A stretch of DNA of 64,000 nt from the NCBI GenBank assembly GCA_964373715.1, contig CAYJVR010000002.1:182937-246936 (forward strand). The letters are read 5' to 3'. The stretch comes from an uncultured Planctomycetia bacterium (GTDB lineage: Bacteria; Omnitrophota; Gorgyraeia; 1-14-0-20-64-10). Under the pieces are notes generated by a model. It was not told the DNA's origin, did no database searches, and worked only from the letters and a program-made list of their open reading frames with translations. The stretch's first letter is position 1, and each line of letters opens with the position of its first letter. Position numbers and translations under genes: made by a program. This document shows, in pieces, positions 5,388-58,807 of the stretch.

Positions 5388-5391
5388 CGGA

Positions 5392-8761: not shown

Positions 8762-8779
8762 CCGCTCTCCCGCCCTCCT

Positions 8780-10006: not shown

Positions 10007-10047
10007 AGGTTCCGGTCTTTTAACGGTTTTTATGGGAGGAGAATCGG

Positions 10048-10855: not shown

Positions 10856-10887
10856 CCCCACCACCTCTTTCAAAAGGTGGTGAGGTG

Positions 10888-12536: not shown

Positions 12537-12562
12537 TCGGTTCTCATCAGGAGGTAAGGACG

Positions 12563-13499: not shown

Positions 13500-13579
13500 G
13501 ATAGAGGGAAGCCCGCGTCGGTTTTTTGGAATTTCCGCCCCTGCGGGGTATCTAATAGGGTGAAAGGGGAAAAACGGCG

Positions 13580-19047: not shown

Positions 19048-19148
19048 TTCAGAACGCCACTGGAGTCGTTGGGTTCGGAGCCGTCTAGAAGCGTCTTGAC
19101 GGACTGTTGGCCGAAAGAGTAAACTTTCATCCAGGTAAAGGAGGTTTT

Positions 19149-34488: not shown

Positions 34489-34526
34489 CTCTCGCGGTTA
34501 AAGTTTCGGATTTTCTCGGCGAATTA

Positions 34527-34610
34527 TGCCGAGGGAGAGAATCGAACTCTCATGAGGTTTCCCCCACGGGTTTTTGAGACCCGCGCGTCTGCCAGTTTCG
34601 CCACCTCGGC
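34527..34610 (-). tRNA. tRNA-Leu (anticodon CAA), type II with a long variable arm, no encoded CCA
   Basis: The minus strand reads GCCGAGGTGGCGAAACTGGCAGACGCGCGGGTCTCAAAAACCCGTGGGGGAAACCTCATGAGAGTTCGATTCTCTCCCTCGGCA. The acceptor GCCGAGG/CCTCGGC pairs. The anticodon stem is CGGGT/ACCCG with loop CTCAAAA. The T-arm is GAGAG-TTCGATT-CTCTC. Confidence 0.8.
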
Positions 34611-34659
34611 GAGTTGGATTTCCAAAGAACCGGCTGTCAGACCGGATTATGAGAAAAAG

Positions 34660-34680
34660 TGGTGGAGCTGAGGGGGATCG
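34660..34680 (-). repeat. 21-bp direct duplicate of the tRNA-Ala 3' end (T-loop to CCA). It has att-site character.
   Basis: tggtggagctgagggggatcg occurs at 34660..34680 and again at 34781..34801 (the real tRNA 3' end). The flanks diverge at once, and the 120 bp between the copies do not fold into a tRNA. Confidence 0.5.
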
Positions 34681-34780: not shown

Positions 34781-34856
34781 TGGTGGAGCTGAGGGGGATC
34801 GAACCCCTGGCCTCCTGCATGCCATGCAGGCGCTCTCCCAGCTGAGCTACAGCCCC
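34781..34856 (-). tRNA. tRNA-Ala (anticodon GGC) with encoded CCA
   Basis: The minus strand reads GGGGCTGTAGCTCAGCTGGGAGAGCGCCTGCATGGCATGCAGGAGGCCAGGGGTTCGATCCCCCTCAGCTCCACCA. The Ala identity pair G3:U70 is present. Anticodon loop ATGGCAT. T-loop TTCGATC. Confidence 0.85.
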
Positions 34857-37451: not shown

Positions 37452-37542
37452 ACCAGCACACCAGTTCATTAATAGTAAATAAATCTATATTATCGGCCTT
37501 GTTTTCTCTCTCTCGTACAGGTAAACTTTTTATAAACCCCTG

Positions 37543-40500
37543 ATGTTAAAGAAGAAAGCCTCGAGCAGAGCTATTTTTTTTGCCCGCTTATTGAGCTCTT
37601 TTTTGATCGTGGAGCTGGCGGTAGGGGGAACCCCTGCCCATGCTCTGCGTCCGATCAACGCTCCTGAATCGGGCACTGCCTTAGATCTTCAGGGAGCTCT
37701 CCGTACAGGCCTCCCGGATCTCTCTCCTTTGAACGCCGGCCTCGAAGAGGTCCCTCCCGGTTGGTATTCTCAAGCTGTTTTCTACAGCATGGAGATGGAC
37801 CGGTTTGTTGATGGGTTGACGCCGGATGCTCTCACCCGGGATGAGATGGAGGTGGTCAGGGGTTTCCTCGAGAACCGGGAGACTGCTCTGCTGGAGGGGG
37901 TCAGCCAGATCATGAGCGACAAGAACTCGGCGATCCACTTTGTCCCGGAAATGACCGAGTCGGAGATTCTCCGGGAGTACCAGAACGACCCGGACCGCCG
38001 CCAGCAGACGCCGTACTACTGGGGTACGGCGCGTGTTCCGTTCGTTGACCTGAAAAAGATGGTCGGAACCTTCAACCTGCCGAAGGATTTCCCAGACCAG
38101 TTCAAGGACCTCGTGTATAGGGCGCTCCGCCGCCGTCATCCTCTGGGAAAGTCGCCTCTCTACGGCGGAGTTCGCGGAGGGGCTCTCGGCGCCCGCATCG
38201 TGATGATGCACCAGGCCCCTGACCAGTTTGCGCTCAGCGTGCGGGAGGCGATTGACGAGGCCCGGGACCGGATCAAAGAGCTTTATCCGGAGGTTTTTGT
38301 GGGAAACATGAGTGTCCAAGGCCAGGCCGAAGTGCCGCGTTCGCAACTGTTCGACCAGATCATCGCCAAGCTCCGCTTTTACTCTTCCCATGTGTCAATC
38401 ACTCTGCCTGACCCTCCGGAATCCCCATCGATCAGCCTCGCATTCGACGGGATGATGCGTGTGCCGCTCAAAGATGTTCCGCGGACGCTTGAACGGGGTG
38501 AGGTTGAGGCGATTGACGAGGGCAGGAAGCCCCCTTATCTGAATCCAGACCAGCTTGCCCTCCTCGCTGAGGACCCCGCCACAGCGGCCGAATTAGTCCA
38601 ACAGTATCTCGACTGGGACCGGTACTTCAGCGAGCGCCGCGGCAAGTACTCGACCGCCGCTCGGTACTGGCTCCGGCAGGTGGCGCTGCTCCGGGCCAGG
38701 GGCGAGGAGAACGACCGGGCCCGCGCCATAGCGAGTTTCTTCATCGAGAGACTGATGTCCGACCGGTGGGCCAGTTTGAACGCGCGGCTTCCACTGTCAG
38801 AGGTGATCTACTTCCCGGATATTGATCCGGAGTTGACCCAGGCTATCCGCCAGGTGATGCCGCCCGAGATGCTCCCGGCCCCGGAGCACCCGGAACGGAT
38901 CCTGGTCATTGACGACGCGTTCATCAGCGTATTGATCGAGGGGTTCCGCAGCATGATAAAGAAGAGTCCGACCCGGTCGCAGCAGCAGATGCAGTCCATG
39001 CGGATGCTCGGCCGGATTTTCAAGATCATGCTCGAAGGGTACAGGGGGACCGTCCCCTTGGCGAACTACCACACCGCGCGCAATCCGCGGCTCCGCCACG
39101 CGATCGACCGGGTGTACAACCTGGACCGGCCGGAGGGGACCTCCTCGAAGCGGATGATGGACGCCTGGGAACATCTGGACCAGCGCCGGCTGCTGCTGGA
39201 CCGGGCCGTCCGTGAGAAGAGCGATCAGGTCCAACCGCTCCGGGACCAGATGCAGGTTGCGCTTGATCAGTTCAAGGAGGAGTACCGGCGTTACCGGCTC
39301 GACGCCTACGAAGCGATGATGCTCGCGCCCCGGGATCCCCGCGTGGAGGAGGTTGTGAAGCTGTACTGGGTTGACCAGTACGCCGAAGCCGACCGGTCGG
39401 GACATATCGCCTCCCTCCGGGGACATCTCACCGGCGAGAGGGACCGTCTGATCGCCCGCCGGGACCAGATTGTTGCAGGCACTCCCGCAACGGTCGAGCT
39501 CGATTCCGCTATCGGCCGCTTGAACCGGCTCATCGGGCTCTTGAATCCCGGCGCGTTTATCGTCAAGCGCCCGGAAGGGGACGAGATCGCGCCCGTGATG
39601 CGGCACTCGAACGGTCTGTTCGTGATGGGGTTAACCGAGCGGAACAAGGGATGGTCGCACGACCAGACTTATCCGCCCGGCCCGACCGACGAGATCTATT
39701 CGGCGATTACGCTAAGGTCTCTTGACGACGCGGTGAAAAAATATTCCGAATCGGGCGGCGACACCCGCCGGGCAATGGTCGGCGCGCTGGCGAACACGAA
39801 CGCGGTTATCCTGCAGGTGGAGCCGCGCGACTTCCCGACTTACGAGAAACATCTGGAAAACGGACTGGTTGTCCGTATGGAGTCGTACGCCCCCCCCGGG
39901 TTGCCCGCCCCGACCAGCTTGCGCAGCCCCCGCAGCCGGAACTGGTACCGCTGGCTGGCAGACCGGGACGCCAAGGGCAGCCCATGGCAGGAGGACCCGG
40001 CCCGGACCGGCCCCGCCGAGAGGCACCCCGACCTCCGGCGTTTCCGGGACAAGTTGTCGGTTGCCGCGATCTACAACGAGGTTTTGCTGTCGCCCGATCT
40101 TTTGCCGGAGATGTTCGCCCAGCTTGAGTTGGCGACCGACATCCAGAAGAAACGGCCTGACCTGGTGTCCCGGGTCGTAGAGATCCATGAGATTGTCAAG
40201 GAGCCCGAGAGCGTGTGGGATCTCCCGCCCGACGCGTTGGCCGGACTCGAAGAACTTGAGGCCGGTTTTCAGAGGATGGAGACGGCCGGCGACGTGTCCG
40301 GGCTGGAAGAGACGCCCCTTCAACAGAAGATTTTTCTCAGGCTGCGCACTCAGAGCCGGAGGATTTCCGAGCGCCTTCAAGGCCACCCTTTTCCTATAAA
40401 AATTCTGTTGGGCCCCGGTCAGATGCCGGTTTACCGGGCGGAGAATGACGGTCTGCCTATGAACCGGATGACATTGTGGCTGTTCAGCCGCGGCGTCGAG

Positions 40501-43500
40501 AACCTGATCCTGCGCGAGGCGGGCCCGGAGTTTCAGCAGGAATTTTCCGATGCGGTGCGGGAGTTCGGCGCCAACCAGCCTTTTACGATGTACGACGGTC
40601 AGACGGTCCTGACGATGGCCAGCACCGATGAGGTCAGGCAGTTGGTTGAGGGAGACGCGCGGCTTAACCCTCAGCAAAGAGCGAGAGTCATTTTACTCAA
40701 AGAGTTTATCGACCGCAGCCGGGGGTTGAACCCGGACGCCGTTGTTGAAGCCGCCGTTAACTTTCTGTTTGATGATAATTACCGAAACCTGTTGGAGAAC
40801 GTCAATCACGTCCGGACCAACCCGGGCAAGAATCCCCGGTTGGCCGGCGGCAAACCGCCGGTCCGGTCGGCCGGCGAGATTGATTCGCAGAGAGGGGTCG
40901 AGATCTGGCTGGTCAAAGAGGGCAACGATACGATGGTTGCCCAGGTCTCCGTTTTCTTGAAGGACGGCACTCGCTCCTTGTTTGTGGTCAACGTTGCAAA
41001 GGATTTAACCGACGCGGGAAGAATCTTGACGGAAGTTGTTCAGGTGCTCGACGCGAACTACGAGCGGCATCCGGGCTACAGCATGGAGACCTTCCAGTTC
41101 GGCGAAGGGACGGCTTTCGTGGGAACCAGAGAACAGAAGATCCCGCTTTTCACCGGAGAATGGCTTGAGGGATACGAAGAGTCCCATCTGTTTGCGGTCC
41201 CCGAAGATTCCGGCCAGCCGGCCCGCTTCCATGTCTGGTGGGGCCAGAACTCCCGTTTGAGCGAGCCTCTTTCAGAGACCGAATCGGACAGCGTTTGGTC
41301 GGCGTTGATAGAAGCCCAAACCGTTCTCTCCTGGATCGAAGGTCGCGGCAAAAATAGGAGGGCCATATTGAGCCAGCCCAACGTGAATGCCGGGGATATG
41401 CCGGTGATCAAGCCGGGAAACGGCTGGAAGGGGGTCCTCATCTGGGACCGCCGGATGGTACCGCCCGAGAAATTCGACCTTGGCCAGATGGTTTTGGAAG
41501 GGCTTCTTAAACAGGTCGTCGATTCGCGCGGCGGCCAGATTCGCAGGATTTGGTGGGGAAAGCCGGAGAAGGCAGTGGAGGCGATCCGCCGCGGTTTCGT
41601 GGAAGCGGCCCGCTACCAGGCGGAGAAAGCGGGGAAGGACCAAAGACGGGCCATGCGGCAGGCTCAGGCGAGCTTGAACCGGATTTTCGAGAGGGTTTAT
41701 GAGGGGACCTTACAGGCATGGGCCAACGATCCCAGCCTCTATCCTGGGTGGAGCGATTTCACGGCTTCGGAAAAACAGCGTTTTTCGGAAATCGTTGCGC
41801 AGGCGCGCCATGTGGTCGGCGTTGTTATCGGAGAAGAGGAGCCTCAATCGCTGGAAGAATCGGGTCTTGAGGAAGGGTACGCAGCGAAGTCGGACCGGCT
41901 GGAGCGGTTGATTCCTGAGGTTGAACAGCTCATGGCGGCCGAAACCAAAAGCGGCCTCCTTCGCAGGACCATCGGGGAGATCCGGAGCGATTCGTATTTT
42001 GTCGAGGGGCAGATCGCTTACATTCCCGTGCGCCAGGGAGCGCTCTACGTGATCGGCGATAACCACGGCGATTACAAGAGCCTGCGCAAGGCGATCCAGC
42101 GGAGTGGCTATGATCCGGAGGATCCGGACCGGCCCCATCTTGTTTTTGTCGGCGATTACGGGGATGTCGGGAAGAAAAGCTTGGATGTGGTTCTTCAGGT
42201 GTTGGAAATGAAGCTGGCCGATCCGGAGCGGATCACCCTGCTGGCGGGCAATCACGACCGGGACCGGCCCACCCGCGGGTCGGAAGACGTCCAAAAGTGG
42301 ATCGCCGCCGGCAACGAACCGTCCCGCTGGTTTTTCTGGGAGTTGGAGGAGAAGATTGGCCCTCAGCGGGGTTCCGCCCTGTTTGACCGGCTTACCCGGT
42401 TGGCCAGAAGTTTGCCGATGCTGGTTGTGACGGCCAACGGGATCGCCGTAACGCACGCAAGTCCCCCCTCCGCGCTTGATCCTTTGTACAAGCCGGAAGA
42501 GGGGCTCCTGGGGATCGCGGGCAATCAGAAACTGCTGGACCGGTTTGCCTTCAACCTGATCCGATATCCGGATGCTGAAGCGGATGAGCAGAACACCACC
42601 TTTCACCGGATGCATCCCCGTTTGGAGATGGGACATTGGATCGGCCGGCAGGGGATCGACACTTTCCTGAACAGCATCGGGGCGACGGTCTTGGTTCGGG
42701 GGCACAACCGGACCGGGCCCGTTCTGCCGACCCACCAGGGGAAGGTGCTGACCGTCATCACCACCGACTGGCGTTCCAACGACGGCGGCTATCCGAAGCA
42801 GGACAGAGGGGTTGCCCGGATCGCCAAGTTTGACTTGGCCGCCTCCTATGCTCAGATACCGTCCGAAGTCATCCTCTCCGTTTGGGACGCCGCAGGCCGG
42901 CTGCCGCGGCAGTCGCCGTCGGGTCTCGAGGAGGTGTCGGAGCGGGTACCGTTTGAGTTAGGACAGCTTGCCGAACGGAGCCGGTCGGATCTTCCGTTGA
43001 TTGTTGATCTGCAGACCCTTCCGCCGGGACTCCTGCGCGATTTCATCGAATGGCTTAACCAGATCGAGGCGGATGATGTGGTGGTGATCGGCGGGATGCT
43101 GCGCGATACGCTTCTCGGATATGAGCCGGGCGACGTTGATTTTGCCGTCAAGGTAGAGTTGCCCGCTGACCTACAGCAGTCTTGGCAGGAGGATGTGCGG
43201 CGGCTGACGCCGATTGCTTTGAATGAGAAGTACAAGCTCCAATATCGAGCCGACAAGGTGCTTTACCAAGTCGCAAAGAAAATGCAGATCTCTCCTAGCC
43301 GGCTACTCCGGCTGAGAGAACGGTTTCAGGAGCAGGGTTTGGAGTTCAGCTTCAGCGCGGTGGTTGCGGGAAATTTCTTGATTGATTTCGGACGGCAGGC
43401 AACCTTTACAGTTAATCAGATTGCGATGGACCGGAAGGGCCGTGTTTATCTGCCTGAATCGCGGAGAGGGTTCGAGGATCTTTTCAACCGGTTGATCGTT

Positions 43501-45306
43501 GTGCCGCGCAGTTCCGGCAGCGGGCCAATTGCGGGAATCGGATTAAAAACCGCTCTCCAAGGGGTTCGGTACCATCATCAATATGGAATGACAATCGATC
43601 CGGCCACTTATCAGCTTTTCCGACGGGTTGCGGAGCGAGGACAGTCTGAGCCACCGTCCCGTATCCGGAGGATTTGGTGGACGGTCAAGGGAACGATCCG
43701 CGAACTCGGCAGGGCTGTCGCTCATCCGTCTCTTGCGGGGGCCCATCTGCGTTCCGCTCGCCGGTTGGCCGCTCGTATGCTTTGGGATTCTTGGATGCAC
43801 GATGCCCCCGGCCGATGGTTGGAAAAAGTGCTCGAATCGGTTCCCGATCCGGTACCGGTGTTGCGGGAATTGGCCGAGCTGGGTTTGCTGGACGTATTGC
43901 GGATTTCCGGTGCGGATGTGGACGGGATCATTGACCGTCGAATGGGCGGTCCGCCGGCCTCAGCCGGGTTGGAGGAGTTGACCGTGGAAAAGGTGGATCA
44001 GTGGATTCATCTCCTCGAACAGGGGTGGCCGGATCAGCGATGGATCACTTTAGGGAATGCCGGGTGGGCTCTCTTCCTGCGTTCCGCCCCGCCGGAGGCG
44101 ATGGTCCTGCGGGCCGACCGGTTGGTTTCTGCGGTCGTCTCCAATCTGGCCCCGCCCAAGCAATCCTGGGGGTCTTTTCTCTTCGCAGAACAGAGGGATG
44201 TCCGGGAGGACGCGCAGAAGTTGGTGAATACCTTTCTGCGAGTTCCCCGGTTTCGCAAGGCGCTTGCTGCCGACCCGGATCGGGTGGTTTCCCATACGCT
44301 CCGTAATTTTGTTTTACGCAAAGGTTTTCTGGGATTCAACGCCGCGGGGTCGATTCGTCTCATGGTTGGTTTGGAGCCTTTTCAGGAATCGTTGGCCGGC
44401 CGGATCCCCTCCTTGGTTGACCTTCTAGAGGGGGCCGATCCGGTCATCGCTTTAAGGGCCCGTGAGATCCTGATCGATTTTTTGGAACAACCCGGTTTCC
44501 GCCCGTTTCTGGCGGATGAGGTCTCGACGCTGGTGTGGTTCCTCCGGAAAGGGAATCTCTCGGCCGGCGTTCATTCGGGAGAAATCCTGAAGGCCATGGC
44601 TTCCATCGAGACTTTCCGCCCGGCGCTGGCTCGCGAGGCCCCTTCGCTCAGGGAGCTGACGGAAAGCGAAGGCGAGTACCTTTCGCCACGCGCTTACGCG
44701 AGGGATATCCTGGAACTGCTGGGCCCGACGGGGATCTGGTTTGGGAACGGCATCCAGGTGCTCGATCGACGGCCGGTTTTGCCGAGCGGCAGCATCCGTT
44801 TTGGATTCTCCGCCGGTTTGGAAGAGTTGGGGTCCCTCCGCCAGCGGATGCCGGAGTGGCTGCGGGGGATTATCTCCCCGGACCGTCTGCCGGACCTGGT
44901 CCGCGGGGTGCATGAGATCTCCAATGCCTCTGACAAGGTGGCCGTGCTGATCCATCCGGGGCTCTTTCCGGCCGATGCCGACCCGTTTGATCTCGAGGTG
45001 AACCTGGTCGGGCTTTCGGGCAATGTGCGGGCTTCTTTGGGCCTGCGTGAAGGGACTGACCTGAGAATTGGTCTTTTGACCGAAGAGAACTTGAAAACCT
45101 ACAACGGGTACCGGATCGTCCAGGTGTTGAGGGATCCGGCCGCCGCGCACCGGGAAGCGCTGCCTCTGGAGGCGGTCCCTCTCGTGGTGGCCGAGGCTCT
45201 CTCTGTGCGGGGAAACACCTTCTGGGTGGATGTGACCCCCTATCTCGCGGTGAGTGAGTTGACGATGCCGGAGGTTCTCTCCACGCTCACCGATCTCTTC
45301 GCGTGA
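37543..45306 (+). CDS. Giant (2587 aa) multi-domain protein: N-terminal hydrophobic leader, about 1450 aa of unassigned sequence, a calcineurin-like (PPP-family) metallophosphoesterase domain, a poly(A)-polymerase/CCA-type nucleotidyltransferase head domain, and about 600 aa of unassigned C-terminus
   Basis: Uninterrupted 7.76-kb ORF with an AT-rich promoter region upstream and a terminator hairpin downstream. PPP motifs at about 42040..42260: VIGDNHGD (GDxHG), VFVGDYGDVG (GDxxDRG-like) and LLAGNHD (GNHE-like). NTase head at about 43084..43150: VVIGGMLRDTLLGYEPGDVDFAV, which matches the GGxxRDxxLGxxxxDxD pattern of PcnB and CCA-adding enzymes. Six [S/A]GLEE motifs lie at predicted domain boundaries. 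Confidence 0.7.
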   Translation: MLKKKASSRAIFFARLLSSFLIVELAVGGTPAHALRPINAPESGTALDLQGALRTGLPDLSPLNAGLEEVPPGWYSQAVFYSMEMDRFVDGLTPDALTRDEMEVVRGFLENRETALLEGVSQIMSDKNSAIHFVPEMTESEILREYQNDPDRRQQTPYYWGTARVPFVDLKKMVGTFNLPKDFPDQFKDLVYRALRRRHPLGKSPLYGGVRGGALGARIVMMHQAPDQFALSVREAIDEARDRIKELYPEVFVGNMSVQGQAEVPRSQLFDQIIAKLRFYSSHVSITLPDPPESPSISLAFDGMMRVPLKDVPRTLERGEVEAIDEGRKPPYLNPDQLALLAEDPATAAELVQQYLDWDRYFSERRGKYSTAARYWLRQVALLRARGEENDRARAIASFFIERLMSDRWASLNARLPLSEVIYFPDIDPELTQAIRQVMPPEMLPAPEHPERILVIDDAFISVLIEGFRSMIKKSPTRSQQQMQSMRMLGRIFKIMLEGYRGTVPLANYHTARNPRLRHAIDRVYNLDRPEGTSSKRMMDAWEHLDQRRLLLDRAVREKSDQVQPLRDQMQVALDQFKEEYRRYRLDAYEAMMLAPRDPRVEEVVKLYWVDQYAEADRSGHIASLRGHLTGERDRLIARRDQIVAGTPATVELDSAIGRLNRLIGLLNPGAFIVKRPEGDEIAPVMRHSNGLFVMGLTERNKGWSHDQTYPPGPTDEIYSAITLRSLDDAVKKYSESGGDTRRAMVGALANTNAVILQVEPRDFPTYEKHLENGLVVRMESYAPPGLPAPTSLRSPRSRNWYRWLADRDAKGSPWQEDPARTGPAERHPDLRRFRDKLSVAAIYNEVLLSPDLLPEMFAQLELATDIQKKRPDLVSRVVEIHEIVKEPESVWDLPPDALAGLEELEAGFQRMETAGDVSGLEETPLQQKIFLRLRTQSRRISERLQGHPFPIKILLGPGQMPVYRAENDGLPMNRMTLWLFSRGVENLILREAGPEFQQEFSDAVREFGANQPFTMYDGQTVLTMASTDEVRQLVEGDARLNPQQRARVILLKEFIDRSRGLNPDAVVEAAVNFLFDDNYRNLLENVNHVRTNPGKNPRLAGGKPPVRSAGEIDSQRGVEIWLVKEGNDTMVAQVSVFLKDGTRSLFVVNVAKDLTDAGRILTEVVQVLDANYERHPGYSMETFQFGEGTAFVGTREQKIPLFTGEWLEGYEESHLFAVPEDSGQPARFHVWWGQNSRLSEPLSETESDSVWSALIEAQTVLSWIEGRGKNRRAILSQPNVNAGDMPVIKPGNGWKGVLIWDRRMVPPEKFDLGQMVLEGLLKQVVDSRGGQIRRIWWGKPEKAVEAIRRGFVEAARYQAEKAGKDQRRAMRQAQASLNRIFERVYEGTLQAWANDPSLYPGWSDFTASEKQRFSEIVAQARHVVGVVIGEEEPQSLEESGLEEGYAAKSDRLERLIPEVEQLMAAETKSGLLRRTIGEIRSDSYFVEGQIAYIPVRQGALYVIGDNHGDYKSLRKAIQRSGYDPEDPDRPHLVFVGDYGDVGKKSLDVVLQVLEMKLADPERITLLAGNHDRDRPTRGSEDVQKWIAAGNEPSRWFFWELEEKIGPQRGSALFDRLTRLARSLPMLVVTANGIAVTHASPPSALDPLYKPEEGLLGIAGNQKLLDRFAFNLIRYPDAEADEQNTTFHRMHPRLEMGHWIGRQGIDTFLNSIGATVLVRGHNRTGPVLPTHQGKVLTVITTDWRSNDGGYPKQDRGVARIAKFDLAASYAQIPSEVILSVWDAAGRLPRQSPSGLEEVSERVPFELGQLAERSRSDLPLIVDLQTLPPGLLRDFIEWLNQIEADDVVVIGGMLRDTLLGYEPGDVDFAVKVELPADLQQSWQEDVRRLTPIALNEKYKLQYRADKVLYQVAKKMQISPSRLLRLRERFQEQGLEFSFSAVVAGNFLIDFGRQATFTVNQIAMDRKGRVYLPESRRGFEDLFNRLIVVPRSSGSGPIAGIGLKTALQGVRYHHQYGMTIDPATYQLFRRVAERGQSEPPSRIRRIWWTVKGTIRELGRAVAHPSLAGAHLRSARRLAARMLWDSWMHDAPGRWLEKVLESVPDPVPVLRELAELGLLDVLRISGADVDGIIDRRMGGPPASAGLEELTVEKVDQWIHLLEQGWPDQRWITLGNAGWALFLRSAPPEAMVLRADRLVSAVVSNLAPPKQSWGSFLFAEQRDVREDAQKLVNTFLRVPRFRKALAADPDRVVSHTLRNFVLRKGFLGFNAAGSIRLMVGLEPFQESLAGRIPSLVDLLEGADPVIALRAREILIDFLEQPGFRPFLADEVSTLVWFLRKGNLSAGVHSGEILKAMASIETFRPALAREAPSLRELTESEGEYLSPRAYARDILELLGPTGIWFGNGIQVLDRRPVLPSGSIRFGFSAGLEELGSLRQRMPEWLRGIISPDRLPDLVRGVHEISNASDKVAVLIHPGLFPADADPFDLEVNLVGLSGNVRASLGLREGTDLRIGLLTEENLKTYNGYRIVQVLRDPAAAHREALPLEAVPLVVAEALSVRGNTFWVDVTPYLAVSELTMPEVLSTLTDLFA

Positions 45307-54033: not shown

Positions 54034-54106
54034 TAGATATATAATTTAAATATTTTCTGACATCCCACCTCCCTACCGGGTATACTCTTTACAAGGTAAA
54101 CCCGGC

Positions 54107-57100
54107 ATGAAACCTACAAAAACAGCTCTCCAAACTGCTCTCGGGCTCTTTCTCTGCCTCGCTCTTGCTCTGCCTGGTTCCTCCTACGCTTTGCGAATCG
54201 AACAGGTCGGAGATAGCTCTTTTGCGCTCAACGGATTGGAGCAGAGACTGAAGCAAGATGCCTTACTGCCCGCCTCCGGGCTAGAAGAGAAATGGAGCTC
54301 TTTCCCCTGGAGGTCACTCGAGGGGAAAACGCTCCGCCAAAAACTTCTTCGGCTGAGACGATTCGCGGATCTTACACAGCGCCGTTTTGCCGAAGAGGCG
54401 GGCATCAGTGTGCATTATTACTTTGCTCTCGAGAAAGGGACGAAGATTCCGTCCCTGCGTATGCGCCGGAGAATAGCCGATTTCTATGTGGAGCGGCAGG
54501 GCGCTCCCCGTTGGGCAATCTATGAACTATTTGAGATCCGGGACCCGGAAGAGATCCTGAAGGGGTTGAAAGGGAAACCGGTTCATGAAGTTGTTCGAGG
54601 GCTGCGTGAATCGGTGGGGGTTTTTAAAGAAGGGGACACGGGTATTGCAAAGATAGTGGGAATGGACAGGCTTGAATACAGGCTTCTCGAGCGGGGTCAA
54701 GTCGCCCCGACAACAAGGCTGCTCCGCAAGCTGATCACCTACTATTCGGAAGAGCACGATTTTCCACCCGATGCTCTCGCAAGGGTTCTTGGGATCAAGT
54801 CCGCGGAGGAAATGCTCGATGGGATAGAAGGGGAAGAGCTTCCCAAGATGATCCGTACACTGCGGGATTTTGCAGGGCTGACTCAAAAAGAGCTGGCAGA
54901 GGCCATCAATGTTTCGGAAGCCACTTATCGGGTCTGGGAGTGGGATGGGGCAGGGCCCCCCTCCTTGGCGAATCGCCGGGCGCTTGCCGGTTACTACGAA
55001 ACCGCGCACGGTTTTCCTCCGGTCCGCATAAGAAGGATTTTTAGAGTGGAGATTCCTGCGGCGGAGGTGATGACGCGGCTGGCCGAGGTTTCGAGCTTTT
55101 CCGACGCGCTGCGGCTTCTTCGGACCTCGCAAGGTTTTCTGCCGGCCCGATTGGCTGAAATCCTCGGGGTTTCAAGGAATACCTACTACAGTTGGGAAGA
55201 GAATAGAGTTATTCCCGGACCTGGCGATCAGGAGAAGATCGCCGCTTATTTCAGCGAAAAATGGGGGTTCCCTTACCGTCATCTCTTGAGTCATTTGACA
55301 GGATTGGCGCATGCCCAGCAACCGATACCGCCAGGAGCCCGCGATGTTCCGATGCTGAACATCACAGTGAACGATCAGCGCTTTCGTGTTCCCGCCGCCG
55401 GTCTCATCGGTTCCCAACCGCTTAATTTCAGGCAACTCTTCAACTTGCTGGTGCGGGAAGATCTGCTCGATTACGAAGATTCTCAAGAGGTCGAGAGCAG
55501 GCGTGTGATTATTGAGCGAGAAATGGAGACCGACGAAGGGACCCAGCCCGTCGTCAAGCTGCTTGGATCGCCGGTGACCACGGATGAGTTGAACCGGTTA
55601 CACGTATTTTCAAAGGTCGAGGATAACGATCAGATTGTTATTTCACCCATCGTGATCAGGAGGGGATGGAAACCGCGACAAACCGAGAATGTCGGGAGCC
55701 TCTTAAACCCAACGCGGGTTGTCCGGCACCCGGATGAGGTGGATATTTGGCTTCTATCAGCGGAGGAAAACGAGGATCCGGTACCGGATGATACCGAAGA
55801 GACAGGTACCCAGCCGCCGTCCGACGCTGGGTTGGAGGAGGAAAAGCAGGAGGCGAGCTGGGCACTTCCGGTGCGTCAGGTTTGGGTTCCACAGTTGAAT
55901 CGACATCTCTACGCGACGGATGAGATTGTCGATGCAGATAACCGCGGGGCTTCCCTTTTTCTAGACTTGATCGCGTCTAATCCCGGAGTGTTTCGAGAAA
56001 AAAGAGTCTTGGAAATCGGGACTGGATCGGGCGTTATCGCGATCGCTTTAGCGCGGGCCGGTGCAATCGTGGTTTCGATCGACATCTTGCCCGAAGCATT
56101 GGAATTAGCGCAGGCCAATCTCGTCGGAGAAACCTCAGAGGTTCAAGGGCGGATAACGCTTAGCCAAAGCAACGTCTATGCCCAGATACGGAAGATTACC
56201 GACAAGCTAGACTTTGATATGGTGGTAACCAACAATCCAATTCAAAATAAAGAGCCCTTGCAAGAGCAGAAAATCACTTATGCCCGCTGGGCGGGGAAAG
56301 GTTTCCAATTTGTTCGAGATGTAGTTGAAGGTTTGCCGGCCGTCTTAAAACCACTAGGGCAAAATCGCGAGCTTTACATTTTAACCTTTGAGGAGTCGGC
56401 GCGCGATGATGCCGGTGATTATCTGGTTCCGTCCCGCCTTCAAGACCTCCTGCTTCCCCATTGGACGCTACAACATACGGGATTGGTCTCAGCCCCGGAG
56501 GGGAGACCGCCAATATCCATTCAGCATGTCTTTGATACAAGAACCCAGGTGGCCACTCTTGAAGTAGGCGGATCGTATCTTCGGGGCGGGGTTTTCGGCC
56601 TTTCCGGAAACCTCATCTATCCAATGCAAACCATCTTTTTGCCCAACGTTCTCCCATACCGCCCCGTATCGAATCGTGAGAATCAAGAACCTCTCCTCCA
56701 ACTGATGGTGAATTCGCTTCAGCAGCTCATGCGACAAGCAGGTGGTGTGGGCGGCATTTCGTTGAGTATGGCGACTGACGTTGATCCATCAGGACGCTTG
56801 ATTCCCAGCGGGGCGGAAAACGTTCCGTTCCCAGAATCCTTCGAGCTTGCCGATCTCCTTGAAAAACGGCTTGGCCCGGATGTCCGCGTTTTGCTTTCCA
56901 ATGACATCGTTTCAGCCGCAACCGCCGAAGGGCTGTCAGGTGCTGGGAAAGGGCTTGATTTTTTTCTTTTCGCCACGGTATCCACGGGACATACCACCGC
57001 TGCAAAGTTTCCGGATGGAAAAATTTCGGATCTGGGAACCTGGAACTATAAAGTGGATCTTAACGACAATGTTCGCGGCGTCAACGCAGCTGGCGTACCG

Positions 57101-58807
57101 GTTACCCTGCTGGCCGCCGGCAATGGGATTGCAGATCTGGCTCGTCAAAACACAGGGCGGCCTGGCTATCCGGAGATTTTGGAAATGGCGGGTGGAGATC
57201 CAAACGCTATTACTGGAAAAACAGTCGGGGAAGCTTTTCTGAAGGGAAATCCTCTCGCAGCAGAGCTTGTTCACCGTTCAACTGCCTTGATTGGGAAGAC
57301 GTTGATGCTGGCTTTACAAAACCTTCGGCAAGAGGGTCGCTTGCAGTCGATCGACCAGTGGAATCAACCTGCAATTCCTATTATTCTCAGTGGTGGCTTT
57401 GCCGCCGGAATAGGCCCTCGTTATGCAGCGGAGGTACAACGGACTATCGATGATCTGGGAGGTCAGACACTCTACGCAAAACCGATCCGAGTCATCCCTC
57501 CTGAATTGGACGCCGATTTGCGCGGACCTGCCGGAGCAGCCATCCATTTTGCTCAACAAAATCTCGCTGGATTGAGAGAAGAAGCTCTCGCTCAAGCAAT
57601 GTCAGAGGAAACGGTACCGGAGAAGCCGGTACGGGGTACCGAAGAGACAGGTACCCAGCCGCTGCCCGACGCAGGGTTGGAGGAGTTCCAGAAGCGGTTG
57701 GTTTTAAGAGAGGAAATAAGGGGGGCCTTTTCTAAGGCGGATGCCTACCACGACGTGTGGAAGCCTTTCGAACAAAAAATCTGGGAACCGTTTAGAAAAA
57801 AGCAGTTCATTACAAACACCTACTATTTCTTTGCGGATGATAAGTTGGGCCTCCCGAAATATCAAGTGCCTTTCAAGGAAGCCTTCTTAAACCTGGCCCT
57901 CCACGGCAATGGAGGATGGGTAGAAATCTACCGGCTTCATCGGGAAGGTCAGGATTCCGACGGGATCGAGTTTGTGCTGAAGGATCACGGCCCGGGCATA
58001 GAAAATCCAAACGTGGTTTTAGAAGCGAGTATTCAAGCGCAAAATGACAAAGCTCAGAAGGGATTGGGTTTTGCGCTTATCTCGATGTTTCCCGATCGAA
58101 TAATCTTTCATTCGAAAGGTGTGCAGTGGGAAAAACGAGAGTTTCCAGATCGGAGATTCCGGCCTGCCGGGCCTTCGGACGTCGCGCAGGGAGACGGAAG
58201 CCGCTGGCATCTGATTTACGAGAAGCTGCCGTATGCGATGAGCCCGCAACAGGCTCCTTGGGGCGCCTGGAAAGCGCCGTTTTCCGGGGAGAGCCCTACC
58301 GGCCAAGAGGGGGATAAGACCGCCGGCATGGAGGAGATACCGTTGGAGAAAGCGATCGATCTCCTCGAGGAGGCGATGCCACAAGGGCCGGGGATTTTGG
58401 TGATTGAGGCCGGGGTGGTCAGCCGGCGGATGGGGCTGGCGGAGTTTGTCGCGCGCGTTCCACGGAGTCTGGGAGACCGGATCGTTCTCTTCGGGCCGGA
58501 GAGCGCGGAGGCCAGGGAGATCGCCGTCCGCAACGGCATCGCCGTGGTGGACAGCGACAAACTGAGCGATCTGATTCTTCAGCTTATGGTTCTTGGAGAT
58601 GAAGCCGACCGGGTTGGCTATCTCGGAGATCCGGAAACCGCCGCGGTGCTTTCCGCCAGGCTGCCCTCTTCCATGGAGGTGACGCCGCTTGATCCTGAGA
58701 CGGCGCTTGACCGGCTCCTGCTTTATCTCGGATTCCCCCAAGGGGTGCTGGAGACGATCGACGCGATGGGGATGGAAGAGCTGTTCGCCCAGGCCCGGGC
58801 GGCGTAA
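54107..58807 (+). CDS. Giant (1566 aa) mosaic protein: signal peptide, four tandem Xre-type HTH modules, a class I SAM methyltransferase, a ROK/BadF-like sugar-kinase fold, an anti-sigma-type GHKL (HATPase_c) kinase domain, and a C-terminal domain
   Basis: Signal peptide MKPTKTALQTALGLFLCLALALPGSSYA|LR. The four HTH repeats are LRRFADLTQRRFAEEAGISVHYYFALEKG, ...DRLEYRLLERGQ, LRDFAGLTQKELAEAINVSEATYRVWEWDG and GFLPARLAEILGVSRNTYYSWEENR, each ending in an aromatic-GFPP/HDFPP motif. The MTase motifs are VLEIGTGSGVIAIALA and VVTNNPI. ROK-like: VRVLLSNDIVSAATAEGLSGAGKGLDFFLFATVSTG. GHKL: NLALHGNGG, LKDHGPGI and KGLGFALIS. There are two copies of a 45-bp linker repeat. Confidence 0.7.
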   Translation: MKPTKTALQTALGLFLCLALALPGSSYALRIEQVGDSSFALNGLEQRLKQDALLPASGLEEKWSSFPWRSLEGKTLRQKLLRLRRFADLTQRRFAEEAGISVHYYFALEKGTKIPSLRMRRRIADFYVERQGAPRWAIYELFEIRDPEEILKGLKGKPVHEVVRGLRESVGVFKEGDTGIAKIVGMDRLEYRLLERGQVAPTTRLLRKLITYYSEEHDFPPDALARVLGIKSAEEMLDGIEGEELPKMIRTLRDFAGLTQKELAEAINVSEATYRVWEWDGAGPPSLANRRALAGYYETAHGFPPVRIRRIFRVEIPAAEVMTRLAEVSSFSDALRLLRTSQGFLPARLAEILGVSRNTYYSWEENRVIPGPGDQEKIAAYFSEKWGFPYRHLLSHLTGLAHAQQPIPPGARDVPMLNITVNDQRFRVPAAGLIGSQPLNFRQLFNLLVREDLLDYEDSQEVESRRVIIEREMETDEGTQPVVKLLGSPVTTDELNRLHVFSKVEDNDQIVISPIVIRRGWKPRQTENVGSLLNPTRVVRHPDEVDIWLLSAEENEDPVPDDTEETGTQPPSDAGLEEEKQEASWALPVRQVWVPQLNRHLYATDEIVDADNRGASLFLDLIASNPGVFREKRVLEIGTGSGVIAIALARAGAIVVSIDILPEALELAQANLVGETSEVQGRITLSQSNVYAQIRKITDKLDFDMVVTNNPIQNKEPLQEQKITYARWAGKGFQFVRDVVEGLPAVLKPLGQNRELYILTFEESARDDAGDYLVPSRLQDLLLPHWTLQHTGLVSAPEGRPPISIQHVFDTRTQVATLEVGGSYLRGGVFGLSGNLIYPMQTIFLPNVLPYRPVSNRENQEPLLQLMVNSLQQLMRQAGGVGGISLSMATDVDPSGRLIPSGAENVPFPESFELADLLEKRLGPDVRVLLSNDIVSAATAEGLSGAGKGLDFFLFATVSTGHTTAAKFPDGKISDLGTWNYKVDLNDNVRGVNAAGVPVTLLAAGNGIADLARQNTGRPGYPEILEMAGGDPNAITGKTVGEAFLKGNPLAAELVHRSTALIGKTLMLALQNLRQEGRLQSIDQWNQPAIPIILSGGFAAGIGPRYAAEVQRTIDDLGGQTLYAKPIRVIPPELDADLRGPAGAAIHFAQQNLAGLREEALAQAMSEETVPEKPVRGTEETGTQPLPDAGLEEFQKRLVLREEIRGAFSKADAYHDVWKPFEQKIWEPFRKKQFITNTYYFFADDKLGLPKYQVPFKEAFLNLALHGNGGWVEIYRLHREGQDSDGIEFVLKDHGPGIENPNVVLEASIQAQNDKAQKGLGFALISMFPDRIIFHSKGVQWEKREFPDRRFRPAGPSDVAQGDGSRWHLIYEKLPYAMSPQQAPWGAWKAPFSGESPTGQEGDKTAGMEEIPLEKAIDLLEEAMPQGPGILVIEAGVVSRRMGLAEFVARVPRSLGDRIVLFGPESAEAREIAVRNGIAVVDSDKLSDLILQLMVLGDEADRVGYLGDPETAAVLSARLPSSMEVTPLDPETALDRLLLYLGFPQGVLETIDAMGMEELFAQARAA
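55796..55840 (+). repeat. 45-bp intragenic linker repeat, copy 1 (encodes EETGTQPPSDAGLEE)
   Basis: gaagagacaggtacccagccgccgtccgacgctgggttggaggag. It is 42/45 identical to the copy at 57641..57685. Both are preceded by a KpnI site (ggtacc). Confidence 0.8.
57641..57685 (+). repeat. 45-bp intragenic linker repeat, copy 2 (encodes EETGTQPLPDAGLEE)
   Basis: gaagagacaggtacccagccgctgcccgacgcagggttggaggag. Confidence 0.8.

What the first reader, a model, noticed from the sequence alone, without database searches (positions are those of the whole stretch)
37543..37800. The two giant ORFs share a homologous N-terminal leader (hydrophobic segment, then ALR, then an SxxALxLxxxL block, then LPxxGLEExxxxW)
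The 37543 protein reads AHA|LRPINAPESGTALDLQGALRTGLPDLSPLNAGLEEVPPGW. The 54107 protein reads SYA|LRIEQVGDSSFALNGLEQRLKQDALLPASGLEEKWSSFPW. The two align over about 45 residues immediately after the predicted signal peptidase site, although the rest of the proteins are unrelated. A shared post-signal leader on two otherwise different giant proteins looks like a dedicated sorting or secretion-recognition module, or a pro-domain, for an unknown export route. The type IV pilus/T2SS-like machinery encoded at the left of this window is an obvious candidate.
Basis: seen in the sequence. Interest (0 to 1): 0.65.

Follow-up and report, generated by a model that had tools for sequence, protein, structure and literature searches.

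The report
Shared leader on exported modular proteins
The two giant genes belong to an undescribed family of exported, cysteine-free, mix-and-match proteins from uncultured Omnitrophota-like bacteria, in which a signal peptide, an "ALR" motif, repeated "GLEE" motifs at module borders and a constant tail domain frame very different cargo, which suggests a dedicated but still unknown processing or sorting route.

Summary
The quoted sequences are exact. As a pair, the two leaders do not align better than shuffled controls (p=0.41 for the 45 post-signal residues). The shared elements are nonetheless real. A leader HMM built only from six proteins of other genomes picks exactly these two ORFs out of 678 window segments.

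An exhaustive search with the C-terminal domain of ORF 37543 finds 65 representative proteins, up to 6251 aa. Of the 29 members of at least 300 aa with a signal-peptide-like N-terminus (27 representatives plus the two window ORFs), 27 carry [AGST][LM]R after the hydrophobic core. In 26 of those, GxEE follows within 60 aa.

It occurs 7 times in P1 and 5 times in P2, against about 0.15 and 0.12 expected, always at module borders. Homology blocks shared with other members end at it.

Both proteins also end in an alpha/beta C-terminal domain that follows a GLEE. Mature P1 and P2 contain no cysteine, which supports real export.

My best reading is Sec-exported mosaic polyproteins in which GLEE is a processing or recognition site. 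No link to the nearby type IV pilus/T2SS genes was found. The family appears undescribed.

The parts
37543..45306 (+). P1, 2587-aa family member with a type-A C-terminal domain. It sits in the slot between leuS and comEC.
   Evidence: ORF. Pfam finds only Metallophos (aa 1502-1721) and PolyA_pol/NTase (aa 1848-1985). Synteny with L007 and L009.
37543..37644 (+). P1 Sec-type signal peptide (aa 1-34, MLKKKASSRAIFFARLLSSFLIVELAVGGTPAHA).
   Evidence: n/h/c regions and the -3/-1 Ala rule, by inspection. The segment is 58% identical to the N-terminus of P0014, whose cargo is unrelated. The NCBI gene call starts 20 aa too late.
37642..37650 (+). P1 A-L-R motif (aa 34-36), straddling the predicted signal peptidase site.
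   Evidence: 27 of 29 signal-peptide-bearing members have [AGST][LM]R here. The motif is absent from other exported proteins of the window.
37645..37749 (+). P1 post-signal leader (aa 35-69). It contains a degenerate first motif (LQGALRTGL) and ends in the first AGLEE.
37738..37749 (+). P1 GLEE motif 1 (aa 66-69), in the leader.
40243..40254 (+). P1 GLEE motif 2 (aa 901-904).
40300..40311 (+). P1 GLEE motif 3 (aa 920-923). It is the N-terminal border of the 921-1440 module shared with P0030.
41863..41874 (+). P1 GLEE motif 4 (aa 1441-1444). It is the N-terminal border of the metallophosphatase module shared with P0044 and P0038.
42922..42933 (+). P1 GLEE motif 5 (aa 1794-1797). It ends the metallophosphatase module and starts the nucleotidyltransferase module.
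43966..43977 (+). P1 GLEE motif 6 (aa 2142-2145).
44815..44826 (+). P1 GLEE motif 7 (aa 2425-2428), at the start of the C-terminal domain.
44815..45303 (+). P1 type-A C-terminal domain (aa 2425-2587, ending ...MPEVLSTLTDLFA).
   Evidence: The profile finds 65 representative proteins, with the match at or within a few residues of the C-terminus in all but two short fragments. AlphaFold2 gives pLDDT 90.5 and a four-stranded alpha/beta fold. No PDB, Pfam or NCBIfam match.
54107..58807 (+). P2, 1566-aa family member with a type-B C-terminal domain. It sits in the slot between the MGMT-like gene and prfB.
   Evidence: The slot is occupied by a different member in L009 and is empty in L007.
54107..54190 (+). 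P2 Sec-type signal peptide (aa 1-28, ...LALPGSSYA).
   Evidence: It contains the only Cys of the protein. The NCBI gene call (P0070, 1465 aa) is 101 aa shorter.
54188..54196 (+). P2 A-L-R motif (aa 28-30).
54233..54244 (+). P2 degenerate first motif GLEQ (aa 43-46, in ALNGLEQRL). It aligns with L-x-G-L-E-E-x-L of other leaders.
54278..54289 (+). P2 GLEE motif 1 (aa 58-61), at the end of the leader.
55829..55840 (+). P2 GLEE motif 2 (aa 575-578), between the HTH region and the methyltransferase+ROK module.
57674..57685 (+). P2 GLEE motif 3 (aa 1190-1193), in front of the HATPase_c_2 module.
58325..58336 (+). P2 GMEE motif 4 (aa 1407-1410), at the start of the C-terminal domain.
58769..58780 (+). 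P2 GMEE motif 5 (aa 1555-1558), 12 residues from the C-terminus.
58325..58804 (+). P2 type-B C-terminal domain (aa 1407-1566).
   Evidence: 39% identical in a MAFFT alignment (36% by BLASTP) to the C-terminal fragment L003:3-560. hhalign shows no detectable relation to type A. The single-sequence AlphaFold2 model has pLDDT 67.6 and shows beta/alpha repeats.
55791..55840 (+). First copy of the P2 linker (TEETGTQPPSDAGLEE), near-identical in DNA to 57636-57685.
57636..57685 (+). Second copy of the same P2 linker (TEETGTQPLPDAGLEE).

Best explanation
Shown: P1 and P2 are two members of an unannotated family of Sec-exported, mosaic multi-module proteins of 370 to more than 6000 aa. The family is found in MAGs labelled Omnitrophota or Planctomycetia. 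Every member has the same frame:
1. A cleavable-looking signal peptide.
2. An [A/T]-L-R motif, usually placed so that its Ala is the -1 residue of the signal peptidase site.
3. A short spacer with one or two [A/S/T]-G-[L/M]-E-E motifs.
4. One to many cargo modules. These are mostly of unknown fold, plus phosphatase, nucleotidyltransferase, methyltransferase, ROK, HTH, WD40, TPR, GNAT, SLT and glycogen enzymes. The same motif, preceded by a Pro/Ser/Ala-rich linker, separates many of them.
5. A constant alpha/beta C-terminal domain (type A in P1, type B in P2) that itself starts with GLEE.
Cargo is exchanged in GLEE-delimited blocks between members and between related genomes.

Inferred: after Sec export, the GLEE motif is recognised by a dedicated factor, most probably an endopeptidase encoded elsewhere in the genome. 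This factor would trim the short LR...GLEE pro-segment, separate modules and detach the C-terminal domain. The C-terminal domain would act as the sorting or hand-over domain for the step after the inner membrane. On this reading the 'leader' is a signal peptide plus the first processing site of a polyprotein, not a separate secretion domain.
For: Frame and family:
- The type-A domain profile finds 65 representatives, nearly always at or within a few residues of the C-terminus.
- Of 29 members with a signal-peptide-like N-terminus, 27 have [AGST][LM]R and 26 of those then have GxEE within 60 aa.
- The independent leader HMM singles out P1 and P2 in the window.
- In P0016, P0030, P0036, P0038 and P0057 the [AT]LRP..GLEE unit lies 15-40 aa behind the hydrophobic core. 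It is therefore a unit of its own.

Motif specificity:
- GLEE occurs 72 times against 2.7 expected, in 32 of 39 protein bodies. GLED, GLDE, GLEQ and ALEE are not enriched.
- Position -1 is A/S/T/G and positions -3 to -6 are Pro-rich.
- The codons differ between copies, so selection acts on the peptide.

Module borders:
- P1 921-1440 matches P0030 527-1017, whose GLEE motifs are at 509 and 1009.
- P1 1441-1794 matches P0044 1417-1796 (GLEE at 1419 and 1788) and P0038 1027-1390 (GLEE at 1028 and 1383).
- The WD40 propellers of P0051 start right after the GLEE motifs at 1041 and 1474.
- In the AlphaFold2 model of the C-terminal domain, GLEE is the flexible N-cap of the first helix.

Export:
- The signal peptides fit the Sec pattern.
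- There are 0 Cys in 2587 aa of P1 and 0 in mature P2. The family has 0.106% Cys against 0.73% in the other window genes. Exported window proteins are similarly Cys-poor.

Cargo polymorphism at fixed slots.
Against: - No cleavage has been observed, and no protease is encoded next to any member. Ten loci show only housekeeping neighbours, apart from an M48 peptidase beside L006a.
- No peptidase domain appears in the cargo census.
- Many domain junctions lack GLEE. Examples are RPE/ThrC/ROK in L006a and methyltransferase/ROK in P2.
- An internal GLEE present in L005 is absent at the same junction of its ortholog P0002. Processing, if it occurs, is therefore not needed at every border.
- GLEE-like strings also occur inside the type-A domain. 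This fits a structural helix-start role.
- The motif matches no protease specificity known to me.
Confidence: 0.45

Rival explanations
1. GLEE is a non-cleaved short linear motif: a Pro-rich linker followed by the N-cap of an amphipathic helix. It would dock every module, the leader and the C-terminal domain onto a common partner. The partner could be a periplasmic chaperone or usher, a surface scaffold or the C-terminal domain itself. The proteins would then stay intact as exported multi-enzyme arrays.
For: - The motif starts a helix in the high-confidence C-terminal domain model.
- Hydrophobic residues recur at +5, +9 and +11 to +15.
- GLEE-like strings occur inside the type-A domain.
- No protease is found nearby or in the cargo.
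- Some junctions lack the motif.
Against: - Only the five residues [AST]GLEE are strongly constrained, and the downstream positions are weakly conserved.
- The small -1 residue and the Pro-rich upstream linker are typical of protease sites.
- A sub-HMM of the start of the C-terminal domain finds no significant matches at leader or internal sites.
- No partner has been identified.
Confidence: 0.25
2. GLEE has no dedicated reader. It is a lineage-typical linker/helix-start 'seam' that spreads passively, because modules are shuffled as cassettes by recombination at these junctions.
For: - Homology blocks end at GLEE.
- The two P2 linkers are near-identical in DNA, which indicates duplication or gene conversion of a junction.
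- Cargo differs at the same genomic slot in related genomes.
- Internal GLEE motifs are gained and lost between orthologs.
Against: - Codons of the motif vary freely while the four residues are invariant. Conservative variants such as GLED, GLDE and GLEQ are not tolerated.
- The motif is kept at a fixed place after the signal peptide and before the C-terminal domain in proteins less than 50% identical.
- It occurs 0 times in 14,379 residues of other genes of the same window.
Together these point to purifying selection on the peptide.
Confidence: 0.15
3. One reading: the post-signal leader is the recognition signal for the type IV pilus/T2SS-like machinery encoded at 4-21 kb in the window.
For: - A PilM/N-secretin-T2SSF-T2SSE cluster is present in the same window.
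- T2SS substrates are Sec-exported first, which fits the signal peptide.
Against: - The cluster is more than 16 kb away, separated by housekeeping genes and two tRNAs.
- No T2SS or T4P genes lie within 10 kb of members in L003, L005, L006, L007, L009, L011 or L012.
- There is no prepilin-type signal.
- T2SS substrates are normally folded and often disulfide-bonded, whereas this family is Cys-free.
- The motif is not confined to the leader.
Confidence: 0.1
4. The similarity of the two leaders is chance plus generic signal-peptide composition.
For: The pairwise alignment is no better than shuffles for the post-signal part (p=0.41), and BLASTP gives E=3.1.
Against: - The independent leader HMM picks out only these two ORFs.
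- 27 of 29 and 26 of 29 members show the motifs.
- GLEE enrichment has P of about 1e-10 and 1e-7.
Confidence: 0.02

Closest known systems
MARTX (multifunctional autoprocessing repeats-in-toxin) toxins
   Same: Both are very large single polypeptides. Conserved N- and C-terminal parts frame a central array of exchangeable effector modules. Module content differs between strains. In MARTX, inter-module linkers are cleaved to release the modules (PMC6315884, PMC4453568, PMC2900308). The frame, GLEE-bounded cassettes and slot polymorphism seen here follow the same logic.
   Different: MARTX toxins have no Sec signal peptide and leave through a type I system. They also carry long glycine-rich repeat regions and an internal InsP6-activated cysteine protease domain that cuts after Leu. 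Here there is a Sec-type signal peptide, no GGxGxD repeats and no Peptidase_C80 or any other peptidase domain. The constant end is a 160-aa alpha/beta domain.
Type IX secretion cargo with a conserved C-terminal domain (CTD)
   Same: Both combine an N-terminal Sec signal peptide, highly variable cargo and a constant domain at the extreme C-terminus. In T9SS that domain directs the post-periplasmic step and is then removed (established knowledge). Two unrelated C-terminal domain types exist in both cases.
   Different: The T9SS CTD is an Ig-like beta-sandwich recognised by NCBIfam/TIGRFAM models and is confined to Bacteroidota and relatives. Here the domain is a four-stranded alpha/beta fold with no NCBIfam, Pfam or PDB match. 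The family also has a conserved post-signal element and internal junction motifs, which T9SS cargo lacks.
Giant proteins of Omnitrophota (West-Roberts et al., bioRxiv 10.1101/2023.11.21.568195; bioRxiv 10.64898/2026.06.07.730766)
   Same: They occur in the same or related lineages. They are long ORFs with signal peptides and odd combinations of enzyme and regulatory domains. Post-translational cleavage into several products has been proposed.
   Different: [quoted passage not shown] They mention no leader, linker or junction motif. They speculate on C39 and S8 peptidase domains, which are absent here. Most members of this family are 0.4-3 kaa rather than over 10 kaa.
Viral polyproteins and multi-core RiPP precursors (e.g. 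cyanobactins)
   Same: A short conserved recognition sequence is repeated at every border of the units to be released. A small residue sits next to the scissile position.
   Different: Viral polyproteins encode their own protease and are cytoplasmic. RiPP cores are peptides, not 150-800-aa folded modules. Neither has a Sec signal plus a C-terminal domain.

Membership tests
Sec/SPase I signal peptide | A positively charged n-region, a hydrophobic h-region of 10-20 residues, and small residues at -3 and -1. | tested here: met
   By inspection and hydropathy scan, P1 ends ...TPAHA|LR and P2 ends ...GSSYA|LR. 29 of 45 family proteins of at least 300 aa pass the scan; the rest look like truncated gene calls. 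No SignalP-type predictor was available.
Sec/SPase I signal peptide | The mature protein is located outside the cytoplasm. | tested here: inconclusive
   The evidence is indirect. Cysteine is depleted (0.106% against 0.73%; 0 Cys in mature P1 and P2), as in the other exported proteins of the window. No experiment was done.
MARTX toxins | Glycine-rich RTX-type repeat regions at both ends. | tested here: not met
   No GG.G.D motif in P1 or P2. No repeat families in Pfam.
MARTX toxins | An internal cysteine protease domain (Peptidase_C80). | tested here: not met
   Pfam scans of P1 and P2 and of four large members found none, and none appeared among the 25 most frequent families listed for 32 members.
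MARTX toxins | A type I secretion signal and no N-terminal Sec signal. | tested here: not met
   A Sec-type signal peptide is present.
MARTX toxins | Exchangeable central effector modules between conserved ends. | tested here: met
T9SS cargo | A C-terminal beta-sandwich CTD (TIGR04183 or TIGR04131). | tested here: not met
   No NCBIfam hit. The AlphaFold2 model is alpha/beta.
T2SS/type IV pilus substrates (prepilin-like) | A class III signal: G|(F/M)TLIE followed by a hydrophobic helix. | tested here: not met
   The leaders read A-x-A|L-R, and GLEE is followed by polar sequence.
T2SS/type IV pilus substrates | Genomic association with the secretin/ATPase cluster. | tested here: not met
   The cluster is more than 16 kb away in the window and absent from the 10-kb flanks of seven other loci. 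Whole-genome co-occurrence cannot be tested here.
Tat substrates | A twin-arginine S/T-R-R-x-F-L-K motif in the n-region. | tested here: not met
   Some leaders have only a single Arg (P-R-F-L-K), and P2 has none.
Double-glycine (C39/PCAT) leaders | A non-hydrophobic N-terminal leader ending in GG/GA/GS, with a C39-ABC transporter nearby. | tested here: not met
   The leader is a hydrophobic Sec-type signal. The motif is [AST]-G-L, not G-[GAS]. No C39 or ABC exporter lies next to any member.
Autotransporters/T5SS | A C-terminal beta-barrel translocator. | tested here: not met
   The C-terminal domain is a 160-aa alpha/beta fold.
Proteolytically processed polyprotein | A conserved short motif at the borders of the released units. 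| tested here: met
Proteolytically processed polyprotein | Demonstrated cleavage, and a cognate protease. | not testable with these tools
   This needs proteomics or expression experiments. No candidate protease was found in cis.

The most novel reading that the evidence does not exclude
Omnitrophota-like bacteria possess a so far unknown export and processing pathway for polyproteins. Cassettes of enzymes and binding domains are strung together between a fixed 'signal peptide-ALR-GLEE' head and a fixed alpha/beta tail. They are exported by Sec and kept cysteine-free for a further translocation step. A dedicated GLEE-specific enzyme, either a protease or a sortase-like transpeptidase, then cuts or re-attaches them at [AST]-G-L-E-E. 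This would be a bacterial counterpart of viral polyprotein or MARTX logic, and it would supply the missing 'cleavage points' for the large proteins of this phylum.
Probability: 0.3. Interest if true: 0.85.

Novelty: new variant of a known kind. Interest (0 to 1): 0.68.

Why it matters
Omnitrophota are abundant, uncultured, probably predatory or parasitic nanobacteria. Their very long proteins are an open puzzle. Published work states that it is unknown whether and where these proteins are cut.

This finding supplies three things.
1. A concrete, sequence-defined frame: leader, junction motif and two C-terminal domains. None has a Pfam, NCBIfam, PDB or literature counterpart.
2. Testable candidate processing or recognition sites.
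3. Evidence that 'cytoplasmic-type' enzymes (kinase, methyltransferase, phosphatase, nucleotidyltransferase, HTH regulators, glycogen enzymes) are exported as cysteine-free cassettes. This points to an effector-delivery or extracytoplasmic-metabolism strategy.

The work also yields HMMs that can inventory this cargo in any genome. It further flags systematic start-codon errors that hide the leader in public annotation.

Tried and rejected
- BLASTP of the two N-termini gave no significant alignment.
- Shuffle tests of the pair were not significant for the post-signal part.
- A word-indexed search of 5.8 billion proteins with a 7-sequence leader profile scored nothing at E<=10. This probably reflects the short, compositionally biased profile, so the leader's spread had to be measured through the C-terminal domain instead.
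- Type-A against type-B C-terminal domains by hhalign showed no relation (probability 0.3%).
- PDB sequence searches with both C-terminal domains found nothing meaningful; the only hits were de novo TIM barrels and generic proteins.
- Foldseek of the type-A model against the PDB gave a best E of 0.53 and TM-scores of 0.37 or less. The caspase hits, at E about 3, are not credible, and no Cys or His is conserved.
- The idea that GLEE is a DNA repeat or recombination site was rejected, because the codons differ between copies.
- The idea that GGN-YTN-GAR-GAR acts as an internal Shine-Dalgarno sequence for internal initiation was rejected. Many copies read GAAGAG or GAAGAA, and no consistent in-frame start follows.
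- The idea that the GLEE..P.W of the P1 leader is homologous to the start of the type-A domain was rejected. The domain scores 0.8 bits (i-E 14), and a sub-HMM finds no sites outside the C-terminal domain.
- A Tat signal, lipobox, prepilin signal, RTX repeats and C39 leader are all absent.
- The search for a conserved neighbouring protease or secretion gene found only housekeeping genes, plus one M48 peptidase beside L006a.
- Literature searches for 'GLEE motif', GLEE+polyprotein and AGLEE found nothing relevant.
- The taxon of the window itself could not be established. The listing of cluster members gives no names, and the assembly accession of the syntenic MAG appears in no paper.
Full report
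**1. Observation**

The window contains two long plus-strand ORFs: P1 (37543-45306, 2587 aa) and P2 (54107-58807, 1566 aa).
- Both start with a Sec-type signal peptide: P1 ends ...GGTPAHA|LRP and P2 ends ...PGSSYA|LRI.
- As a pair, the similarity is weak. BLASTP gives E=3.1, on another segment.
- The best local alignment of the 45 post-signal residues is just AGLEE/SGLEE. It scores 21, against 20.4 +/- 4.2 for shuffles (p=0.41). The whole leaders give p~0.03.

**2.

A six-frame scan shows that G[LM]EE is not confined to the leader.
- It occurs 7 times in P1 (aa 66, 901, 920, 1441, 1794, 2142, 2425) and 5 times in P2 (aa 58, 575, 1190, 1407, 1555).
- It does not occur in any other real gene of the window: 0 in 14,379 residues, with 0.66 expected.
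- By composition, 0.15 copies are expected in P1 and 0.12 in P2. The Poisson probabilities are 2.5e-10 and 1.7e-7.
- The codons differ from copy to copy, so the constraint acts on the peptide and not on a DNA repeat. The exception is two P2 linkers (TEETGTQP[PL][SP]DAGLEE) that are near-identical in DNA.
- The motifs bracket the Pfam-detectable units. In P1 these are Metallophos 1502-1721 (between 1441 and 1794) and the nucleotidyltransferase 1848-1985 (between 1794 and 2142). In P2 these are the HTH repeats before 575, methyltransferase+ROK between 575 and 1190, and HATPase_c_2 between 1190 and 1407.

**3. The family**

P1 has almost no full-length homologs. One hit, P0002 (1946 aa), shares only the two ends:
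- the leader (...VPAHA|LRQPSAIEADPQTLSGLEES);
- a roughly 160-aa C-terminal domain that follows a GLEE and ends ...TLPEILNVLTDRFA.

A profile of this 'type-A' domain gave the following.
- It found fragments in the 5.8-billion-protein set.
- It found three loci in GTDB genomes. Two are labelled uncultured Planctomycetia and one Candidatus Omnitrophota.
- It found three metagenome loci.
- In the exhaustive search of 1.84 billion representatives it found 65 proteins at E<=1e-3, 27 of them at E<=1e-30. In all but two short fragments (P0035, P0067) the match ends at or within a few residues of the C-terminus. Lengths reach 6251 aa.

P2 ends in a different domain, 'type B'. It is 39% identical in a MAFFT alignment (36% by BLASTP) to the C-terminal fragment L003:3-560. 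hhalign shows no relation to type A.

**4. The leader is a family signature**
- Of 45 family proteins of at least 300 aa, 29 have a signal-peptide-like N-terminus. Of these, 27 have [AGST][LM]R directly after the hydrophobic core, and 26 of those have GxEE within 60 residues.
- Several of the remaining 16 are visibly truncated gene calls that still start inside the leader, for example 'MPAHALRQ...' and 'MQEGQPAALAGLEE...'.
- In P0016, P0030, P0036, P0038 and P0057 the unit [AT]-L-R-P-x(1-5)-G-[LM]-E-E lies 15-40 residues behind the hydrophobic core. ALR...GLEE is therefore an element of its own, not merely the +1/+2 residues of a signal peptidase site.
- Other exported proteins of the window do not have A|LR. 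These are the secretin, the LamG protein, DUF4139, ORF 27238 and the BamD-like protein.
- A leader HMM made from six non-window proteins ranks P2 (E=1.7e-5) and P1 (E=1e-3) first among 678 window segments. The next best is E=0.34.
That motif is intact in most members and degenerate in P1 (LQGALRTGL) and P2 (LNGLEQRL).
- NCBI's gene calls cut off both leaders, by 20 aa in P1 and 101 aa in P2.

**5. Motif anatomy and module borders**
- Across 152 sites, position -1 is A/S/T/G and positions -3 to -6 are Pro-rich. G, L (or less often M), E and E are fixed, and the downstream sequence is only weakly patterned.
- In the protein bodies, with the C-terminal domain removed, GLEE is the most widespread over-represented tetrapeptide: 72 observed against 2.7 expected, in 32 of 39 proteins. 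GLED, GLDE, GLEQ and ALEE are not enriched.
- Homology blocks between members stop at the motif:
  - P1 921-1440 matches P0030 527-1017, whose GLEE motifs are at 509 and 1009.
  - P1 1441-1794 matches P0044 1417-1796 (GLEE at 1419 and 1788) and P0038 1027-1390 (GLEE at 1028 and 1383).
  - The P1 leader is 58% identical to that of P0014, although the cargo is unrelated.
- The WD40 propellers of P0051 begin right after the GLEE motifs at 1041 and 1474.
- Not every domain junction has the motif. Examples are RPE/ThrC-like/ROK in L006a and methyltransferase/ROK in P2. One internal GLEE of L005 is absent in its ortholog P0002.

**6. Genomic behaviour**

Members sit singly between housekeeping genes, and no shared accessory gene was found.

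| Locus | Gene order |
|---|---|
| Window | leuS, **P1**, comEC, BamD-like, lptE, holA, murJ, uvrC, MGMT-like, **P2**, prfB, secA |
| L009 (GCA_016177405.1) | Same order; the first slot holds P0044 (2754 aa) and the second a 1327-aa member with the leader ...PSHA\|LRPQQDVRVGLEEALAPAAGLEET and ARMT1+WD40 cargo; a third, 405-aa GNAT member lies 8 kb upstream |
| L007 | The first slot holds a 370-aa member; the second slot is empty |

- UvrC and MurJ of the three genomes are 58-72% identical. Cargo therefore turns over at fixed slots among fairly close relatives.
- L005 and L006b share a near-identical leader and position, after comM and a TPR gene, but carry different cargo.
- Other members lie after frr, after xerC, or in tandem with a giant of more than 4666 aa.

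**7. Export**
- Besides the signal peptides, the family is strikingly cysteine-poor. P1 has 0 Cys in 2587 residues. The only Cys of P2 is inside its signal peptide. The family has 61 Cys in 57,664 residues (0.106%), against 0.73% in the other window genes.
- Cytoplasmic proteins of the window have about 1-1.5% Cys. Its exported proteins (secretin, LamG protein, DUF4139) have 0-0.3%.
- It is established knowledge that proteins which must cross the outer membrane unfolded, or which live outside without a disulfide system, tend to exclude cysteine. This supports the view that the whole polypeptide leaves the cytoplasm, including the kinase, methyltransferase, phosphatase and HTH modules.
- NCBIfam scores of the cargo enzymes are far below the family cut-offs, for example threonine synthase at 136 against 303 bits. 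They are divergent paralogs, not the housekeeping copies.
- The cargo census of 32 members is mostly 'no Pfam'. Hits are Metallophos, WD40, HATPase_c, GNAT, SLT and PALP. No peptidase family is among the 25 listed.

**8. C-terminal domains**
- AlphaFold2 models type A with pLDDT 90.5 from only six sequences. The fold is a helical N-terminal part whose first, flexible turn is the GLEE, a four-stranded alpha/beta core and two terminal helices.
- No Cys, His or Ser is invariant, so the domain is not an obvious protease.
- Foldseek against the PDB finds nothing better than E=0.53, and no Pfam, NCBIfam or PDB sequence match exists.
- The type-B single-sequence model is of low confidence (pLDDT 67.6) and also shows beta/alpha repeats ending in two helices. 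Whether the two types share a fold is open.

**9. Mechanism**

Shown: a constant frame of signal peptide, ALR, GLEE, GLEE-bounded cassettes and a C-terminal domain; peptide-level selection on the motif; cassette exchange; a signature of export.

Inferred (confidence about 0.45): GLEE is the recognition site of a dedicated processing enzyme encoded elsewhere. That enzyme would trim the short LR...GLEE pro-segment, separate modules and release the C-terminal domain, which would serve the sorting step after the inner membrane.

| Rival | Confidence |
|---|---|
| A non-cleaved docking motif | 0.25 |
| A passively inherited cassette seam | 0.15 |
| Chance | 0.02 |

The T2SS idea has no positive support. 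The cluster at 4-21 kb is separated from P1 by sigma/anti-sigma pairs, panE, accA, cobO, two tRNAs and leuS. None of the other loci has such genes in its flanks.

**10. Comparison and novelty**
- The logic resembles MARTX toxins, which have conserved ends, swappable central modules and processed linkers (PMC6315884, PMC4453568, PMC2900308). It also resembles T9SS cargo, which has a Sec signal, variable cargo and a removable C-terminal domain.
- The defining features of both were tested and are not met. There are no RTX repeats, no CPD and no T1SS-type architecture. The domain is alpha/beta rather than a beta-sandwich.
- The two papers on long Omnitrophota proteins describe no leader, junction motif or cleavage point. 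One states that cleavage points are unknown. Literature searches for the motif found nothing.
- I therefore class this as a new variant of a known kind: exported modular proteins with a sorting frame or polyprotein logic. The family itself appears undescribed.

**11. Limits**
- There is no experimental evidence.
- The taxon of the window is inferred only from labelled relatives.

Noticed in passing
window 58861-59977 (shift site CTTTGAC at 58927-58933): prfB (RF2) is split over two frames. It has the classical programmed +1 frameshift signal: GGAGG, a spacer, then TAT CTT TGA C. This is a known feature. The listed ORF at 59033 is only the downstream part.
   Followed up: partly
window 37543-37602 and 54107-54409: Public gene calls truncate both leaders. 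The NCBI version of P1 (P0001) starts 20 aa downstream at a TTG. The NCBI version of P2 (P0070) is 101 aa shorter. Several family representatives are likewise called from inside the leader. Annotation therefore hides the signal peptide, ALR and GLEE.
   Followed up: partly
window 55791-55840 and 57636-57685: Two linkers inside P2 (TEETGTQP[PL][SP]DAGLEE) are near-identical in DNA over about 50 nt. This suggests a recent duplication or gene conversion of a junction.
   Followed up: partly
window 37520-37526, 54079-54085, 54095-54101; also upstream of members in L003, L005, L006, L007, L009: GGTA(A/T)ACT(T) sits 4-45 nt before the start codon of every family member examined. In L005, L006a and L006b it is preceded by TTGACA at about 17 nt, so it is probably a -10 box with a very short 5' UTR. 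The same GGTATACT precedes prfB, so it seems lineage-general and not family-specific. The simple promoter scan did not call it in front of P1.
   Followed up: partly
window 3215-20924 and 21139-22581(-): A type IV pilus/T2SS-like cluster is present: a ParA-like ATPase, PilM, PilN, a secretin, T2SSF and an MshE-type ATPase. It is interrupted by an ECF sigma/anti-sigma(FecR) pair and a 1513-aa signal-peptide protein with a LamG domain. A second, PilZ-fused T2SSE ATPase lies on the minus strand.
   Followed up: no
window 34527-34610(-) and 34784-34856(-): Two tRNA genes lie on the minus strand just upstream of leuS. The mechanical ORF 34120-34671 overlaps them and is probably not a gene.
   Followed up: no
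L009:565-1782: A third, small family member lies 8 kb upstream of the leuS slot in the syntenic MAG contig. It is 405 aa, with a GNAT acetyltransferase as cargo, the leader ...SAPALA|LRDPEAREKKPEVLGGLEEVL and a type-A C-terminal domain. That makes at least three members within 28 kb.
   Followed up: partly
L010:1-18262: A WD40-rich giant ORF of more than 4666 aa ends 4 nt into the start of family member P0057 (2753 aa), so two very long ORFs lie in tandem. It was not checked whether the upstream one belongs to the family.
   Followed up: no
L006:4217-5122(-): An M48 (HtpX-like) metallopeptidase gene lies divergently next to member L006a. It is the only peptidase seen beside any member. It is not conserved at the other loci.
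   Followed up: no
window 54107-58807 (P2, aa 817-962): The ROK-family module of P2 contains no cysteine at all. ROK kinases normally carry a Cys-rich zinc motif (from my own knowledge), so this module is either non-canonical or adapted to an extracytoplasmic setting.
   Followed up: no
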